A DNA stretch of 4,715 nucleotides from a virus (taxonomy: Duplodnaviria > Heunggongvirae > Uroviricota > Caudoviricetes): the IMG/VR virus record IMGVR_UViG_2667527792_000004; one strand, 5' to 3'. Position 1 is the first letter of the stretch; the number at the start of each line of letters is the position of its first letter. This document shows, piece by piece, positions 1-4,715 of this stretch. Under the pieces are notes generated by a model that had not been told where the DNA came from, did not search any database, and saw nothing but the letters and a program-made list of their open reading frames with translations. The position numbers and the translations under genes were made by a program.

Positions 1-425
1 AATTAGACCAGCAATATCTAAAAGATCTACTTATCGCATTCGAAAAAACTCATGGCCCTGACACGATGCTTAGTGAACTAGAGGATAATGGCTTTAATAG
101 ATATGACCAAAATTTTATTTTCCATATGCGATTATTATGCGACTACGAATTAATAGTCAGGGTTGATGGAAAACCTGGGTTCGGTCATATAATGTCCAAC
201 GAGTTAGGGGAAGGTGTTGGATATAGTTGGATCGAAGTACCACTGAGGTTGACAGCAAGAGGGCATGATTTTATTGCTGACTTGCGTCAAAAGGAGGTCT
301 GGCAAACTATAAAAACAAACTTTAAGGATGAGGGAATTAGTACACTAATAAGTGTTTCAAAATCACTAGCAAAAGGCTTTGCAAGGAAAAAGATAAAAGA
401 TATTACAGGAATAGATATTGAATAA
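1..425 (+). CDS. 5'-partial hypothetical phage accessory protein (ea-region moron; tentatively resembles DUF2513-type small phage proteins)
   Basis: The frame is open from base 3 to TAA 423-425 (141 codons). There is no in-frame start before ATG 66 and no Shine-Dalgarno in front of ATG 66, so the true start is probably just upstream of the window. The segment is visibly AT-rich compared with the rest of the window. It sits where ea8.5 lies in phage lambda. The family assignment is from memory of motif spacing only. Confidence 0.55.
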   Translation, partial: LDQQYLKDLLIAFEKTHGPDTMLSELEDNGFNRYDQNFIFHMRLLCDYELIVRVDGKPGFGHIMSNELGEGVGYSWIEVPLRLTARGHDFIADLRQKEVWQTIKTNFKDEGISTLISVSKSLAKGFARKKIKDITGIDIE

Positions 426-469
426 TTCTTAGCATCAGCAACTACTGCCTTTGGTGGAAATTATATCTG

Positions 470-496
470 AACTCGCTACGGCGAGTTTTGTTTTAT
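470..496 (+). terminator. Putative intrinsic terminator hairpin (AACTCGC-TACG-GCGAGTT) followed by a T-rich tract
   Basis: Perfect 7-bp inverted repeat at 470-476 and 481-487 with a 4-nt loop, then TTGTTTTAT. Lies between the accessory ORF and the 55-aa ORF. Confidence 0.4.
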
Positions 497-507
497 GGAG
501 ATGATAA

Positions 508-675
508 ATGCACTTCCGAGTCACAGGTGAATGGAATGGAGAACCATTCAACAGAGTTATCGAAGCAGAGAACATCAATGACTGCTATGACCACTGGATG
601 ATATGGGCCCAGATAGCACATGCAGACATAACCAATATTCGAATTGAAGAACTGAAAGAACACCAAGCCGCCTGA
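508..675 (+). CDS. Small hypothetical protein, 55 aa, matching the lambda ORF between ea8.5 and xis (orf55 / lambdap35-like)
   Basis: ATG 508 is preceded by GGAG at 497-500 (7-nt spacing). Translation is MHFRVTGEWNGEPFNRVIEAENINDCYDHWMIWAQIAHADITNIRIEELKEHQAA, near-identical to my recollection of the lambda ORF at this position. It is below the 60-aa cutoff of the supplied ORF track. Confidence 0.7.
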   Translation: MHFRVTGEWNGEPFNRVIEAENINDCYDHWMIWAQIAHADITNIRIEELKEHQAA

Positions 676-690
676 TGGCGGTTTTTTCTT
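666..690 (+). terminator. Putative intrinsic terminator (GCCGCC-TGAT-GGCGG stem-loop plus T6 run); the stop codon of the 55-aa ORF lies in the loop
   Basis: Inverted repeat 667-672 / 677-681 followed by TTTTTT at 682-687. Confidence 0.45.
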
Positions 691-702
691 GCGTGTAATT
701 GC
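689..702 (+). promoter_or_regulatory. cII-type activator site TTGC-N6-TTGC of the int promoter pI (-35 region)
   Basis: TTGCGTGTAATTGC has direct TTGC repeats 6 nt apart, the arrangement of cII sites at lambda pRE, pI and paQ. Its position puts the transcription start inside the first codons of xis, as known for pI. Confidence 0.55.
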
Positions 703-714
703 GGAGACTTTGCG

Positions 715-933
715 ATGTACTTGACACTTCAGGAGTGGAACGCTCGCCAGCGACGCCCAAGAAGCCTTGAAACAGTTCGTCGATGGGTGCGCGAATGCAG
801 GATATTCCCTCCTCCGGTTAAGGATGGAAGAGAATATCTGTTCCACGAATCAGCGGTAAAGGTTGACTTAAATCGACCAGTAACAGGTAGCCTTTTGAAG
901 AGGATCAGAAATGGGAAGAAGGCGAAGTCATGA
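715..933 (+). CDS. xis: Excisionase Xis (lambda-type), 72 aa
   Basis: Full-length ORF whose translation (MYLTLQEWNARQRRPRSLETVRRWVRECRIFPPPVKDGREYLFHESAVKVDLNRPVTGSLLKRIRNGKKAKS) matches lambda Xis as I recall it. GGAG lies 8 nt upstream. Its 3' end overlaps int by 23 bp, as in lambda. Confidence 0.95.
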   Translation: MYLTLQEWNARQRRPRSLETVRRWVRECRIFPPPVKDGREYLFHESAVKVDLNRPVTGSLLKRIRNGKKAKS

Positions 934-1981
934 GCGCCGGGATTTACCCCCTAACCTTTATATAAGAAACAATGGATATTACTGCTACAGGGACCCAAGG
1001 ACGGGTAAAGAGTTTGGATTAGGCCGAGACAGGCGAATCGCAATCACTGAAGCTATACAGGCCAACATTGAGTTATTTTCAGGACACAAACACAAGCCTC
1101 TGACAGCGAGAATCAACAGTGATAATTCCGTTACGTTACATTCATGGCTTGATCGCTACGAAAAAATCCTGGCCAGCAGAGGAATCAAGCAGAAGACACT
1201 CATAAATTACATGAGCAAAATTAAAGCAATAAGGAGGGGTCTGCCTGATGCTCCACTTGAAGACATCACCACAAAAGAAATTGCGGCAATGCTCAATGGA
1301 TACATAGACGAGGGAAAGGCGGCATCAGCCAAGTTAATCAGATCAACACTGAGCGATGCATTCCGAGAGGCTATGGCTGAAGGCCATATAACAACAAACC
1401 CGGTCGCAGCCACTCGCGCTGCAAAATCAGAGGTAAGGAGATCAAGACTTACGGCTGACGAATACCTGAAAATTTATCAAGCAGCAGAATCATCACCATG
1501 TTGGCTTAGACTTGCAATGGAACTGGCTGTTGTTACCGGGCAGCGAGTTGGTGATTTATGCGAAATGAAGTGGTCTGATATCGTAGATGGATATCTTTAT
1601 GTCGAGCAAAGCAAAACAGGCGTAAAAATTGCCATCCCAACAACATTGCATGTTGATGCTCTCGGGATATCAATGAAGGAAACACTTGATAAATGCAAAA
1701 AGATTCTTGGCGGAGAAACCATAATTGCATCTACTCGTCGTGAACCGCTTTCATCCGGCACAGTATCAAGGTATTTTATGCGCGCACGAAAAGCATCAGG
1801 TCTCTCCTTCGAAGGGGATCCGCCAACCTTTCACGAGTTGCGCAGTTTGTCTGCAAGACTCTATGAGAAGCAGATAAGCGATAAATTTGCTCAACATCTT
1901 CTCGGGCATAAGTCGGACACCATGGCATCACAGTATCGTGATGACAGAGGCAGGGAGTGGGACAAAATTGAAATCAAATAA
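911..1981 (+). CDS. int: Tyrosine site-specific integrase Int (lambda-type), 356 aa
   Basis: The 356-aa translation begins MGRRRSHERRDLPPNLYIRNNGYYCYRDPRTGKEFGLGRDRRIAITEAIQ and ends HLLGHKSDTMASQYRDDRGREWDKIEIK, matching lambda Int apart from a few substitutions. It contains the BamHI site (GGATCC 1816-1821) characteristic of lambda int. Confidence 0.97.
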   Translation: MGRRRSHERRDLPPNLYIRNNGYYCYRDPRTGKEFGLGRDRRIAITEAIQANIELFSGHKHKPLTARINSDNSVTLHSWLDRYEKILASRGIKQKTLINYMSKIKAIRRGLPDAPLEDITTKEIAAMLNGYIDEGKAASAKLIRSTLSDAFREAMAEGHITTNPVAATRAAKSEVRRSRLTADEYLKIYQAAESSPCWLRLAMELAVVTGQRVGDLCEMKWSDIVDGYLYVEQSKTGVKIAIPTTLHVDALGISMKETLDKCKKILGGETIIASTRREPLSSGTVSRYFMRARKASGLSFEGDPPTFHELRSLSARLYEKQISDKFAQHLLGHKSDTMASQYRDDRGREWDKIEIK

Positions 1982-2009
1982 TGATTTTATTTTGACTGAT
2001 AGTGACCTG
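1978..2009 (+). other. Int arm-type binding sites P'3, P'2, P'1 of the P' arm
   Basis: ATAATGATTTT (1978-1988), ATTTTGACTGA (1989-1999) and ATAGTGACCTG (1999-2009) are reverse complements of the arm-type consensus C/AAGTCACTAT. P'3 overlaps the int stop codon. Confidence 0.7.
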
Positions 2010-2016
2010 TTCGTTG

Positions 2017-2030
2017 CAACAAATTGATAA
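2017..2030 (+). other. IHF binding site H' of attL
   Basis: CAACAAATTGATAA fits the reverse complement of the IHF consensus WATCAANNNNTTR (YAANNNNTTGATW). Confidence 0.55.
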
Positions 2031-2035
2031 GCAAT

Positions 2036-2069
2036 GCTTTTTTATAATGCCAACTTAGTATAAAAAAGC
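2036..2069 (+). repeat. Perfect 11-bp inverted repeat (GCTTTTTTATA ... TATAAAAAAGC) spanning the inner P' arm and the core
   Basis: Seen directly: 2036-2046 and 2059-2069 are reverse complements separated by 12 nt. It is an intrinsic feature of lambda att DNA. Confidence 0.8.
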
Positions 2070-2115
2070 AGGCTTCAACGGATTCATTTTTCTATTTCAT
2101 AGCCCGGAGCAACCT

Positions 2116-2140
2116 GTGAACACATTTTCAGTTTCCCGTC
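2116..2140 (+). pseudogene. ybhC: 5' remnant of ybhC (first ~8 codons with its RBS), the host gene flanking att-lambda on the gal side
   Basis: GGAG at 2106-2109 then GTG 2116. Translation VNTFSVSR matches the N-terminus I recall for YbhC (MNTFSVSRLALALAF...). The frame then diverges and stops at TGA 2161-2163. Confidence 0.4.
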
Positions 2141-2384
2141 AGCAACAGCGGCCCCAGGTCTGAAACCGTCGCCCGTACCGAATGGCCTTTCTCGCCAAAG
2201 ATATCCCACACCACCACCGGATTAGCATGCGGTTGCCAGTCATTTACGCCGATATTTTTAAGCCTTGCGAGCAGTTTTTCCCCCTGGTTAAATACGCCAG
2301 AAGTCTTGCTGATTACGCTCGATGGCAGCGAAGTTCCCGACGTGCTGGCGGATTATTTGCGCCGCTTTCAGCCTGATTGGGTGG

Positions 2385-2522
2385 ATAGCCGAGTTGCAGA
2401 GTATGCAGCGTTCCTTGCAACGCCTTAACGATGCCTGTTGTGGGACCGCCCATAGCAGTGTTTATTGTTCGATTCTTGAAGCTCTTGAACAAGGGGCGAG
2501 TGGCGTTAAGAGTGGCTGTTGA
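2385..2522 (+). pseudogene. zntR: 3' fragment of zntR (MerR-family Zn-responsive regulator), last ~45 codons only
   Basis: Translation IAELQSMQRSLQRLNDACCGTAHSSVYCSILEALEQGASGVKSGC matches ZntR residues ~97-141, including the metal ligands C114, C115, H119 and C124. There is no start and no HTH domain, and the upstream sequence in this frame is unrelated with stops at 2289 and 2310. Confidence 0.7.
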
Positions 2523-2577
2523 TTTTTTGCACTGGCAGGATTACACTCGCGCCGTAAAATAACCAATTGGAGTTTTT

Positions 2578-2796
2578 ATGAGCCGATATCAGCATACTAA
2601 AGGGCAGATAAAGGATAATGCGATAGAAGCATTACTACATGATCCCTTATTCCGACAGCGCGTAGAGAAAAATAAGAAGGGGAAAGGCAGTTACATGCGA
2701 AAAGGAAAACATGGCAATCGGGGGAACTGGGAGGCCAGTGGCAAGAAAGTAAATCACTTTTTTACCACTGGTCTTCTGCTTTCAGGCGCTTGTTAA
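2578..2796 (+). CDS. arfA: Alternative ribosome-rescue factor A (ArfA / YhdL), 72 aa, intact
   Basis: Translation [72 protein letters not shown] matches E. coli ArfA as I recall it. GGAG at 2569-2572 lies 5 nt upstream of the ATG. It is directly downstream of zntR on the same strand, as in K-12. Confidence 0.85.
2733..2773 (+). promoter_or_regulatory. Stem-loop inside the arfA 3' coding region (candidate RNase III processing hairpin)
   Basis: CCAGTGG at 2735-2741 pairs with CCACTGG at 2765-2771, with further imperfect pairing inside. arfA mRNA is known to be cleaved by RNase III in a 3' hairpin to give a non-stop mRNA regulated by tmRNA. Confidence 0.5.
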
Positions 2797-2808
2797 GAGC
2801 GGTTATGC

Positions 2809-3087
2809 ATGATCGGCGACCCGACTGGCGCCCTGACCCGTAACTTCGACAACATGCGTGAAGATGAAGGTCTGGCTGATCGTGCGACCTTCGTTGTTGA
2901 CCCGCAGGGTATCATCCAGGCAATCGAAGTTACCGCTGAAGGCATTGGCCGTGACGCGTCTGACCTGCTGCGTAAAATCAAAGCAGCACAGTACGTAGCT
3001 TCTCACCCAGGTGAAGTTTGCCCGGCTAAATGGAAAGAAGGTGAAGCAACTCTGGCTCCGTCTCTGGACCTGGTTGGTAAAATCTAA
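2809..3087 (+). pseudogene. ahpC: C-terminal half of AhpC (alkyl hydroperoxide reductase, peroxiredoxin subunit), 5'-truncated
   Basis: Translation [92 protein letters not shown] matches AhpC residues ~96-187. The resolving Cys in VCPAKW is present, but the N-terminal peroxidatic Cys region is absent. The M at 2809 is an internal Met of AhpC. Confidence 0.85.
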
Positions 3088-3106
3088 GTTCCGCAATCGC
3101 GTAATT

Positions 3107-3136
3107 AATCGGGTGCTGCGGCACCCGATTTTCTTC
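3107..3136 (+). terminator. Intrinsic terminator/attenuator between ahpC and ahpF
   Basis: 10-bp stem AATCGGGTGC / GCACCCGATT (3107-3116 / 3121-3130) with loop TGCG, followed by a T-rich run. It lies 20 nt after the ahpC stop. Confidence 0.6.
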
Positions 3137-3215
3137 CCCGCACCATGATGCAAGCTGCATCCAGGTAGCCGCAGAGGCCGCTTGCATGATGATGTTTAAA
3201 GCCCAGGAGATAAAC

Positions 3216-4199
3216 ATGCTCGACACAAATATGAAAACTCAACTCAAGGCTTACCTTGAGAAATTGACCAAGCCTGTTGAGTTAATTGCCACGCTGGATG
3301 ACAGCGCTAAATCGGCAGAAATCAAGGAACTGTTGGCTGAAATCGCAGAACTGTCAGACAAAGTCACCTTTAAAGAAGATAACAGCTTGCCGGTGCGTAA
3401 GCCGTCTTTCCTGATCACCAACCCAGGTTCCAACCAGGGGCCACGTTTTGCAGGCTCCCCGCTGGGCCACGAGTTCACCTCGCTGGTACTGGCGTTGCTG
3501 TGGACCGGTGGTCATCCGTCGAAAGAAGCGCAGTCTCTGCTGGAGCAGATTCGCCATATTGACGGTGATTTTGAATTCGAAACCTATTACTCGCTCTCTT
3601 GCCACAACTGCCCGGACGTGGTGCAGGCGCTGAACCTGATGAGCGTACTGAACCCGCGCATCAAGCACACTGCAATTGACGGCGGCACCTTCCAGAACGA
3701 AATCACCGATCGCAACGTGATGGGCGTTCCGGCAGTGTTCGTAAACGGGAAAGAGTTTGGTCAGGGCCGCATGACGTTGACTGAAATCGTTGCCAAAATT
3801 GATACTGGCGCGGAAAAACGTGCGGCAGAAGAGCTGAACAAGCGTGATGCTTATGACGTATTAATCGTCGGTTCCGGCCCGGCGGGTGCAGCGGCAGCAA
3901 TTTACTCCGCACGTAAAGGCATCCGTACCGGTCTGATGGGCGAACGTTTTGGTGGTCAGATCCTCGATACCGTTGATATCGAAAACTACATTTCTGTACC
4001 GAAGACTGAAGGGCAGAAGCTGGCAGGCGCACTGAAAGTTCACGTTGATGAATACGACGTTGATGTGATCGACAGCCAGAGCGCCAGCAAACTGATCCCG
4101 GCAGCGGTTGACCAGCACGTTTTCCGCAGCTGTGGGTCAAAGAGGCATGATGCGACGCTTGTTCCTGCGCTTTGTTCATGCCGGATACGGCTAATGTAG
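3216..4199 (+). pseudogene. ahpF: ahpF (alkyl hydroperoxide reductase subunit F), 3'-truncated: homology covers about the first 298 codons, then unrelated sequence to a stop
   Basis: AGGAGA at 3205-3210 then ATG 3216. Translation [29 protein letters not shown] ... [17 protein letters not shown] ... [12 protein letters not shown] matches the AhpF N-terminal domain and the start of the FAD domain. After ~4110 it reads [29 protein letters not shown]-stop instead of the AhpF sequence EGGLHQIETASG... Confidence 0.85.
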
Positions 4200-4212
4200 A
4201 TCGCTGAACTTG

Positions 4213-4240
4213 TAGGCCTGATAAGCGCAGCGTATCAGGC
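4213..4240 (+). repeat. REP-like palindromic element (GTAGGCCTGATA ... TATCAGGC)
   Basis: GCCTGATA at 4216-4223 and TATCAGGC at 4233-4240 are reverse complements around a 9-nt centre, preceded by GTAG. Another REP-like motif (GATGCGACGCTT) lies about 60 bp upstream. Confidence 0.5.
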
Positions 4241-4271
4241 AATTTTTATAATTTAAACTGACGATTCAACT

Positions 4272-4430
4272 TTATAATCTTTGAAAAATATCGCCAGAGA
4301 CGAACGGGAAACTGATACACAGCAACCCGACGATAAACAACAGCACGGCAATAAACTGGATTGCTCTGCGATGTTTTTTAAGCATCTCCAGATCAAACTT
4401 CAAAATTGTTGCCTTATCTATATATAACAT
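4272..4430 (-). CDS. Hypothetical small hydrophobic protein, 52 aa (single predicted TM helix)
   Basis: Minus-strand ORF giving MLYIDKATILKFDLEMLKKHRRAIQFIAVLLFIVGLLCISFPFVSGDIFQRL. GGTGG lies 4 nt upstream of the ATG. It has a charged N-terminal part followed by a ~22-residue hydrophobic stretch. It is absent from the ORF track because it is under 60 aa, and I do not recognise it. Confidence 0.3.
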   Translation of the reverse strand: MLYIDKATILKFDLEMLKKHRRAIQFIAVLLFIVGLLCISFPFVSGDIFQRL

Positions 4431-4469
4431 AGAACCACCCTATAAAATTAAGAAGAAAATCCCCTGCTA

Positions 4470-4715
4470 TCAATCTATGCCAAAAACGCGTCTAAGAATG
4501 CAGTCGGAGGGCCATTCCGGCAGTACGCTCAGAATATGGCGCAGATACGCTTCCGGATCGATACCGTTCAGACGGCAGGTGCCGATCAGCCCGTACAGCA
4601 GTGCTCCACGCTCGCCGCCGTGATCGCTACCGAAGAACACGTAATTTTTCTTTCCGAGACAGACTGCACGAAGCGCTCTTTCCGCTGTGTTATTGTCCAC
4701 CTCCGCCAGACCGTC
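4470..4715 (-). CDS. IS66-family transposase (TnpC-like), C-terminal 81 codons; the 5' part lies beyond the window end
   Basis: Minus-strand translation ...DGLAEVDNNTAERALRAVCLGKKNYVFFGSDHGGERGALLYGLIGTCRLNGIDPEAYLRHILSVLPEWP... carries the conserved IS66 transposase C-terminal signature (DNN-AER-LR ... GRKN-F-GS ... LNG-DPEAYL). The frame is open to the window edge. The M at 4700 in the ORF track is a GTG within the protein. Confidence 0.7.
   Translation of the reverse strand, partial: DGLAEVDNNTAERALRAVCLGKKNYVFFGSDHGGERGALLYGLIGTCRLNGIDPEAYLRHILSVLPEWPSDCILRRVFGID
4470..4715 (-). mobile_element. 3' portion of an IS66-family insertion sequence; element boundary not identified
   Basis: Transposase fragment as above. 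No GTAAGCG-type terminal inverted repeat is visible between 4200 and 4470. Confidence 0.5.

What the first reader, a model, noticed from the sequence alone, without database searches (positions are those of the whole stretch)
2106..2145. Junction 1: ybhC start and RBS present, but the gene is broken after ~8 codons
An integrated lambda-type prophage should be followed by full-length ybhC. Here the RBS and the first 8 codons (VNTFSVSR) fit, then the reading frame diverges and stops 15 codons in. The host flank is therefore cut roughly 70 bp beyond the core by something other than integration.
Basis: partly seen in the sequence, partly recalled or inferred. Interest (0 to 1): 0.45.

Follow-up and report, generated by a model that had tools for sequence, protein, structure and literature searches.

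The report
Chimeric contig breaks ybhC beside prophage
The ybhC gene next to a lambda-like prophage really does stop matching after 25 bases. It does so because this 4.7-kb contig is a patchwork of eight unrelated pieces of one E. coli genome, which is most likely a sequencing or assembly artefact rather than a real chromosomal rearrangement.

Summary
The window carries lambda-type xis and int, and an attL whose 15-bp core lies at 2055-2069. Host flank follows, with a GGAG ribosome-binding site and the ybhC GTG start at 2116. Identity to ybhC ends exactly after base 2140, which is 8 codons plus 1 nt. The frame then runs QQQRPQV and stops at 2161-2163.

What follows is not a deletion scar. It is a 141-nt internal antisense fragment of yjgR, followed by six more unlinked fragments:
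- slipin gene
- zntR'-arfA-'mscL
- 'ahpC-ahpF'
- cynX/lacA spacer
- hdeD 5' end
- an internal piece of an IS66 transposase gene

The seven junctions show only 0-3 nt of microhomology. None carries an IS end, att site, repeat, adapter or N. All chromosomal pieces are 100% identical to a single lineage (strain WAT-like), lie 0.26-1.3 Mb or more apart around its chromosome, and occur in both orientations.

The window is the whole of contig CDRT01000831.1 of draft assembly GCA_001373215.1. No junction-spanning match exists in 5,426 complete E. coli genomes or in three contig collections.

The most likely explanation is an intragenomic chimera made during library preparation or assembly (about 0.8). 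A real one-step patchwork rearrangement cannot be excluded without the reads (about 0.1). Interest is low.

The parts
715..933 (+). excisionase (xis) of the lambdoid prophage
   Evidence: ORF. Annotated as excisionase in ATCC 8739 at the collinear position.
911..1981 (+). lambda-type tyrosine integrase (int), 356 aa
   Evidence: ORF. Pfam Arm-DNA-bind_1 and Phage_integrase hits on record. The int-xis region (about 460-2070) is 97.8-99.1% identical in DNA to lambda, 434, mEp332 and others; phage Chlobot matches 1-2069 at 98.0%.
1982..2069 (.). P' arm plus the 15-bp common core (2055-2069) of attL
   Evidence: Core found at 2055-2069. Nearly all phage matches end at 2069 (the others at 2070 and 2073). 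The match to the empty attB of strain WAT starts at 2051.
2070..2140 (+). Genuine host flank: B arm, GGAG at 2104-2107, ybhC GTG at 2116 and its first 25 nt
   Evidence: Collinear with ATCC 8739, where the ybhC CDS begins at locus 5116 = window 2116.
2140..2141 (.). Junction 1 (the finding): ybhC nt 25 joined to the inside of yjgR, with 1 nt (C) shared
   Evidence: Three-way alignment of the window against both parents. Perfect-match ranges.
2141..2281 (-). Piece B1: internal fragment of yjgR (gene on the - strand). It is a rare allele, exact in 41 of 5,426 genomes.
2282..2385 (+). Piece B2: internal fragment of an accessory slipin-family gene (yjbD-lysC islet). J2 at 2281|2282 has 0 nt shared.
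2383..2806 (+). Piece C: last 140 nt of zntR, complete arfA (2578-2796) and last 14 nt of mscL. J3 shares GGA (2383-2385).
2807..4111 (+). Piece D: 3' part of ahpC (ORF 2809-3087) plus the first 896 nt of ahpF. J4 shows either TAT microhomology plus a 1-nt deletion or a 2-nt GC filler.
4111..4286 (+). Piece E: cynX 3' end, the cynX-lacA spacer and the lacA 3' end. J5 shares A (4111).
4285..4506 (-). Piece F: hdeD 5' end (146 nt) plus 76 nt upstream. J6 shares AA (4285-4286).
4506..4715 (-). Piece G: internal 3' part of an IS66-family (ISEc47-like) tnpC. It starts 51 nt inside the CDS, not at an IS end. J7 shares G (4506). The contig ends here.

Best explanation
The break in ybhC is the first of seven non-homologous joins in a chimeric contig. 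Short random fragments of one E. coli strain's own DNA were strung together outside the cell, after the attL-ybhC fragment. There are at least seven such fragments, of 104-1305 nt.

Two routes could do this. One is end-to-end joining of fragments during library construction or amplification. The other is an assembler, scaffolder or gap-closer chaining reads and islands that do not belong together.

On this reading the strain's chromosome carries an ordinary lambdoid prophage at attB followed by an intact ybhC.

Shown:
- the mosaic structure and the exact breakpoints
- the single-strain origin of the pieces
- the absence of any recombination signal at the joins
- the source of the window, a small, high-numbered contig of a draft assembly

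Inferred: that the joins arose in vitro or in silico rather than in the cell. Which artefact route was used is unknown.
For: (1) Eight segments come from eight unlinked loci, in both orientations. Positions in strain WAT are:
- ybhC: 0.824 Mb
- yjgR: 4.734 Mb
- slipin: 4.474 Mb
- arfA: 3.665 Mb
- ahpCF: 0.659 Mb
- lacA: 0.395 Mb
- hdeD: 3.867 Mb
- IS66: not placed

(2) The junctions have 0-3 nt of microhomology. A test of 30-nt junction contexts against random E. coli pairs shows no excess local homology (sum p = 0.52). Only in-register identity is slightly raised (p = 0.03).

(3) No IS end, att core, repeat, adapter, vector or N lies at any junction.

(4) Every piece cuts through genes at arbitrary internal positions. 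No frame is preserved and no functional unit is created.

(5) The window is the entire contig CDRT01000831.1 (4,715 bp) of GCA_001373215.1. The assembly therefore has at least 831 contigs.

(6) The structure is unique. No place in 5,426 complete E. coli genomes covers 80% or more of the window. The J1 36-mer is absent from the viral, GTDB-representative and JGI metagenome contig collections. The chimeric AhpF' and HdeD' ORFs occur on exactly one contig among about 15 billion proteins.

(7) The pieces are duplicates of core genes, including a 1.3-kb one. Inference from how de Bruijn and short-read assemblers behave: a real insertion of second copies would normally break a short-read contig at each copy boundary, not thread through all of them.

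(8) The only internal difference from strain WAT in about 2.4 kb is a 1-nt deletion 2-3 nt from junction 4. Errors of this kind tend to survive next to chimeric breakpoints.
Against: No reads, coverage or pairing information could be inspected, so the artefact is inferred and not demonstrated.

All pieces come from one strain background and are otherwise error-free. This is equally what a real intragenomic event would give.

A single library chimera normally has one junction. Seven in 2.6 kb needs either concatemerised DNA or serial mis-joining, and I cannot say which occurred.

No adapter or linker remnants sit at the joins.

Microhomology is slightly above the blunt-join expectation. Six junctions share 8 nt in total, against about 4 expected.
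Confidence: 0.8

Rival explanations
1. This is a real, single catastrophic rearrangement in the isolate. A break in ybhC next to the prophage was repaired by end-joining that captured several chromosomal fragments, or by serial microhomology-mediated template switching (MMBIR or chromoanasynthesis-like). The result is a patchwork insertion of second copies of chromosomal segments.
For: All pieces derive from one strain background and are 100% identical to it, so the event would be recent and intragenomic. Junction microhomology of 0-3 nt, with a small indel at J4, is compatible with such repair. E. coli has a ligase-A-dependent alternative end-joining pathway that uses microhomologies. This is cited in PMC4872102 (read), which refers to Chayot et al. 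2010; that paper was not held here.
Against: As described in the source I could read, E. coli alternative end-joining produces deletions, not chains of seven captured fragments. I know of no documented bacterial example of such a chain (own knowledge). The structure occurs in only one small contig of a heavily fragmented draft. A short-read assembler should not be able to thread through a 1.3-kb duplicated segment (inference). There is no selection rationale, because every gene is a fragment except arfA.
Confidence: 0.1
2. This is a simple prophage- or IS-associated deletion or inversion endpoint: aberrant excision, IS-mediated adjacent deletion, or recombination between repeats that truncated ybhC.
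For: The break lies only 71 bp from attL, and an IS66 fragment is present in the contig.
Against: Aberrant excision joins phage DNA to host DNA, whereas here host is joined to host outside the intact attL. No IS end lies at 2141. The IS66 piece is 2.4 kb away and is itself cut 51 nt inside tnpC. There is no homology between the partners, with 1 nt shared at J1. Six further unrelated joins follow within 2.4 kb, which a single deletion or inversion cannot produce.
Confidence: 0.03
3. This is a cross-strain or metagenomic mis-assembly: pieces from different E. coli strains in a mixed sample were merged.
For: The assembly is highly fragmented, with a contig number of 831 or more. The assembly may belong to a gut culture-collection batch in which wells could be mixed, but this is only a guess based on neighbouring accessions.
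Against: The rare yjgR allele (41 of 5,426 genomes), the accessory slipin fragment and pieces C, D, E and F are all 100% identical to one sequenced strain, WAT. This fits a single donor genome. Graph mis-assemblies join sequences at shared k-mers, but the joins here share 0-3 nt.
Confidence: 0.05

Closest known systems
Chimeric contigs or reads in draft assemblies (insert-insert ligation concatemers, amplification chimeras, scaffolder or gap-closer mis-joins)
   Same: Abrupt non-homologous joins between unlinked loci of the same genome. Arbitrary breakpoints inside genes. Both orientations. A small contig in a fragmented draft that is unique to one assembly. A small error next to a breakpoint.
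   Different: Typical library chimeras have one junction, whereas this contig has seven in 2.6 kb. No adapter or linker remains. The producing step cannot be named without the reads and methods.
Lambda attL (BOP') of a prophage integrated at attB between ybhC and ybhB
   Same: Window 1-2140 is a normal example. It has xis and int, the P' arm, the 15-bp core at 2055-2069, then the B arm and the ybhC start. It is listed at 100.0% in 26 natural E. coli genomes.
   Different: In those genomes ybhC continues for 1,284 nt. Here collinearity ends 25 nt into the gene.
E. coli alternative end-joining (Chayot et al. 2010, as cited in PMC4872102) and MMBIR/FoSTeS-type complex rearrangements
   Same: Joins with 0-3 nt of microhomology. 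A small indel at one junction. Segments copied from elsewhere in the same genome.
   Different: The end-joining products described in the source I read are deletions of up to tens of kb, not multi-fragment chains. MMBIR-type chains are documented mainly in eukaryotes (own knowledge). There is no evidence here that the joins exist in the cell.

Membership tests
Lambda-type attL junction (site-specific integration at attB) | Int and Xis genes adjacent to the P' arm, with the 15-bp common core GCTTTTTTATACTAA followed by the bacterial B arm | tested here: met
   int at 911-1981 and xis at 715-933. Core at 2055-2069. Phage identity stops at 2069. The empty-attB flank of strain WAT matches 2051-2140.
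Lambda-type attL junction (site-specific integration at attB) | The host flank continues collinearly into full-length ybhC | tested here: not met
   Collinearity with ATCC 8739 and all other genomes ends at 2140, 25 nt into ybhC.
Aberrant prophage excision (specialised-transduction type junction) | A novel joint between phage DNA and host DNA that replaces an att site | tested here: not met
   attL is intact, and the novel joint links host ybhC to host yjgR.
IS- or transposon-mediated deletion or insertion | An IS terminus (inverted repeat) exactly at the breakpoint, with or without a target-site duplication | tested here: not met
   Base 2141 lies inside yjgR. The only IS sequence (4506-4715) begins 51 nt inside tnpC, not at an end. 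No flanking direct repeats were found.
Homologous or repeat-mediated recombination | A shared stretch of tens of bp or more between the two parents at the breakpoint | tested here: not met
   0-3 nt are shared at the junctions. There is no excess local homology against random E. coli pairs (sum p = 0.52).
In vivo microhomology-mediated end-joining or template switching (A-EJ, MMBIR) | Junctions with short microhomology and/or small indels | tested here: inconclusive
   Microhomology values are 1, 0, 3, 3 (or a 2-nt filler), 1, 2 and 1 nt. This is only slightly above the blunt-join expectation.
In vivo microhomology-mediated end-joining or template switching (A-EJ, MMBIR) | The junctions are physically present in the organism's chromosome | not testable with these tools
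   This needs the raw reads of GCA_001373215.1 or PCR on the strain.
Chimeric contig (library or assembly artefact) | A contig composed of segments that are non-adjacent in every reference genome of the lineage | tested here: met
   Eight segments lie 0.26-1.3 Mb or more apart around the chromosome of strain WAT, in both orientations. No genome has a place covering 80% or more of the window.
Chimeric contig (library or assembly artefact) | Junctions lack normal read and pair support, while the native continuations are fully supported | not testable with these tools
   Reads are not available here. The only indirect hints are the short contig length and the contig number 831.

The most novel reading that the evidence does not exclude
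The contig is accurate. On that reading a wild E. coli isolate carries, immediately beside the attL of a lambdoid prophage, a patchwork insertion made in one event from at least seven short copies of distant chromosomal segments. The joins have 0-3 nt of microhomology. This would be a bacterial counterpart of chromoanasynthesis, or of multi-fragment capture at a double-strand break.
Probability: 0.07. Interest if true: 0.7.

Novelty: not a real feature. Interest (0 to 1): 0.08.

Why it matters
If it is an artefact, as I judge most likely, it matters only for data hygiene. Contig CDRT01000831.1, and probably other contigs of GCA_001373215.1, should not be used to infer gene truncations, prophage boundaries or rearrangements. 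The truncated YbhC, AhpC, AhpF and HdeD 'proteins' predicted from it are spurious database entries.

If the joins were real, this would be a rare documented case of multi-fragment patchwork repair in a natural bacterial isolate. That would be of interest for the mechanisms of illegitimate recombination in E. coli.

Tried and rejected
- Looked for the whole window in 5,426 complete E. coli genomes. Only the separate pieces were found.
- Searched for the J1 36-mer in IMG/VR, the GTDB representatives and the JGI metagenomes. There were no hits.
- Looked up the AhpF' fusion from the native ATG. It is not on record. The longer 337-aa ORF was on record and identified the source contig.
- Searched the literature for the accession numbers. 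The one hit was a false match to JACDRT.
- Neighbouring accessions point to the Kau et al. 2015 culture-collection batch, but that link is only a guess. Kau 2015 and Chayot 2010 are not held in the library.
- Tested for restriction-site, adapter, linker or vector remnants at the junctions. None were found.
- Tested for extended imperfect homology at the junctions. Only J2 stands out (p = 0.014), and this does not survive correction for seven tests.
- Tested a mixed-strain origin. This was rejected because strain WAT matches all six chromosomal pieces exactly.
- Looked for repeats linking the junctions. None were found.
- Considered a reduced-genome or engineered strain, a lacZ-fusion prophage and a Hi-C/3C-type ligation product. 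These were rejected because the pieces are not in map order, no engineered sequences are present, and no common cut site occurs at the joins.

Full report
**1. The observation**

The left 2,140 bases of the window are an ordinary end of a lambdoid prophage integrated at the lambda attachment site.
- The ORFs include a DUF2513 gene, a 55-aa ORF, xis (715-933) and a 356-aa integrase (911-1981).
- The int-xis region (from about 460) is 97.8-99.1% identical to lambda, 434, mEp332 and related phages. Phage Chlobot matches 1-2069 at 98.0%. Nearly all these matches stop at 2069.
- The 15-bp common core lies at 2055-2069.
- From 2070 the sequence is host DNA. In E. coli ATCC 8739 the collinear region carries ybhC starting at the position equal to window 2116.
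- The window has GGAG at 2104-2107 and GTG at 2116. Its first eight codons, VNTFSVSR, match native YbhC.

In all complete genomes that match, the alignment ends at 2140. A three-way alignment shows the ybhC parent dropping to chance-level identity after 2140. A yjgR parent matches perfectly from 2140/2141, so one C is ambiguous. The frame then reads QQQRPQV and stops at 2161-2163.

**2. What lies beyond the break**

The rest of the window is a mosaic. Using best-matching loci from complete genomes and gapless perfect-match ranges, the pieces are:

| Piece | Window range | Content |
|---|---|---|
| B1 | 2141-2281 | Internal, antisense fragment of yjgR |
| B2 | 2282-2385 | Internal fragment of an accessory slipin-family gene |
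| C | 2383-2806 | zntR 3' end, complete arfA, last 14 nt of mscL |
| D | 2807-4111 | ahpC 3' part and the first 896 nt of ahpF |
| E | 4111-4286 | cynX end, spacer, lacA end |
| F | 4285-4506 | hdeD 5' end and upstream |
| G | 4506-4715 | 3' part of an IS66-family tnpC, starting 51 nt inside the CDS |

The seven junctions share 1, 0, 3, 3 (with a 1-nt deletion, or alternatively a 2-nt GC filler), 1, 2 and 1 nt.

I compared 30-nt contexts of the two parents at each junction with random pairs of E. coli sequence.
- There is no excess local homology (sum p = 0.52).
- In-register identity is mildly raised, reflecting those few shared bases (p = 0.03).
- Only J2 looks unusual (p = 0.014), and this does not survive correction for seven tests.

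No adapter, linker, vector or N occurs anywhere, and no repeats connect the junctions. No common restriction site is visible at the parental breakpoints.

**3. One donor genome**

The yjgR allele of B1 is exact in only 41 of 5,426 complete genomes. The slipin gene is present in 1,631 of them. I walked one of the 41, strain WAT (NZ_CP012380.1), to each locus.

WAT is 100% identical to B1, B2, C, D, E and F. The sole exception is the 1-nt deletion next to J4. Positions in WAT are:

| Piece | WAT position (Mb) | Strand |
|---|---|---|
| ybhC | 0.824 | n/a |
| B1 | 4.734 | + |
| B2 | 4.474 | + |
| C | 3.665 | - |
| D | 0.659 | + |
| E | 0.395 | + |
| F | 3.867 | - |

The pieces therefore come from one strain background and are scattered round the chromosome in both orientations. 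This rules out a cross-strain or metagenomic merge. It does not distinguish an in vitro from an in vivo intragenomic event.

**4. Provenance**

Exact-sequence look-up of the chimeric ORFs showed that the 337-aa AhpF' fusion and the 52-aa HdeD' fusion each exist on exactly one contig of 4,715 bp. That contig is ncbi:GCA_001373215.1:CDRT01000831.1, range 1-4715. The window is therefore a complete contig, numbered 831, of a draft assembly.

No complete E. coli genome has a place covering 80% or more of the window. The J1 36-mer is absent from three large contig collections.

Neighbouring accession numbers are isolates of the Kau et al. 2015 Malawian-children culture collection: CDQM01, CDQP01, CDQV01 and CDQX01, and GCA_001373155.1. 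Another neighbour, GCA_001373295.1, is an unrelated Ralstonia. Assignment of CDRT01 to that batch is therefore only a guess. I could not read the methods paper.

**5. Interpretation**

Integration cannot explain the break, because Int exchange is confined to the core 71 bp away and attL is intact. Several other mechanisms are also excluded:
- Aberrant excision would join phage DNA to host DNA.
- IS-mediated events would place an IS terminus at the breakpoint.
- Homologous recombination would need shared sequence.

None of these is seen.

What is seen is a chain of near-blunt joins between arbitrary internal fragments of 104-1305 nt. No function is created, and the chain sits in a short contig of a badly fragmented draft. 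The simplest reading is a chimera made outside the cell. Either fragments were concatenated during library construction or amplification, or reads and islands were chained wrongly by assembly software.

Two further points lean the same way.
- The pieces would be second copies of core genes, including a 1.3-kb one. By inference from how short-read assemblers behave, a contig would break at repeat boundaries rather than thread through them.
- The only sequence error lies 2-3 nt from a junction.

I put this reading at about 0.8.

**6. The real-event alternative**

A genuine one-step patchwork is not excluded, because I have no read-level data. It could arise by multi-fragment capture during end-joining or by serial template switching.

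E. coli does have a microhomology-using alternative end-joining pathway. It is cited in PMC4872102 (read), which refers to Chayot et al. 2010. As described there, it yields deletions rather than chains of captured fragments. I give the real-event reading about 0.1 overall, and about 0.07 for the specific 'bacterial chromoanasynthesis-like' version.

**7. Verdict**

That something is most probably not biological. Novelty class: not a real feature. Interest is low (0.08).

The decisive test is to map the assembly's raw reads across the seven junctions and across native ybhC, or to run PCR from int into ybhC and into the yjgR and ahpF pieces.

Noticed in passing
window 2281/2282, 2383-2385, 2806-2809, 4111, 4285-4286, 4506: Six further non-homologous breakpoints of the same kind as the one reported. 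They join fragments of yjgR, a slipin gene, zntR-arfA-mscL, ahpCF, cynX-lacA, hdeD and an IS66 tnpC.
   Followed up: yes
window 2804-2812: The window reads TATGC-ATGATC where strains M8 and WAT have TATGCGATGATC. This is a 1-nt deletion in ahpC 2-3 nt from junction 4, or alternatively a 2-nt GC filler. It is the only internal difference from strain WAT in about 2.4 kb of chromosomal pieces.
   Followed up: partly
window 2578-2796: A complete arfA (alternative ribosome-rescue factor, 72 aa) sits inside piece C. It is the only intact chromosomal gene in the mosaic part.
   Followed up: no
window 2282-2385; L003 1405-3107; L020 1082-3968: Piece B2 derives from an accessory islet between yjbD and lysC. 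The islet holds a slipin-family protein, a nucleotidyltransferase-domain protein and a zeta-toxin-family protein. Matches to the slipin fragment occur in 1,631 of 5,426 complete E. coli genomes. Its content looks like a toxin-antitoxin or defence islet.
   Followed up: no
window 2140-2281: The yjgR allele is rare, being exact in only 41 of 5,426 complete genomes. Together with the other pieces it ties the donor strain to a WAT-like lineage. WAT itself has an empty attB, with ybhC and ybhB adjacent.
   Followed up: yes
window 1-2069; L001 1-3000: The prophage end carries a DUF2513 gene upstream of xis and int. In ATCC 8739 the region just inside it contains an IS1 and several pseudogenes, which suggests a decaying lambdoid prophage in that lineage. 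Window position 609 differs from ATCC 8739 (C versus G).
   Followed up: partly
window 3186-4199 and 4272-4430 (-): The chimeric ORFs (337-aa AhpF' with a 29-aa foreign tail, and 52-aa HdeD') have entered the public protein collection as predicted proteins from this one contig. They are spurious entries created by the mosaic.
   Followed up: yes
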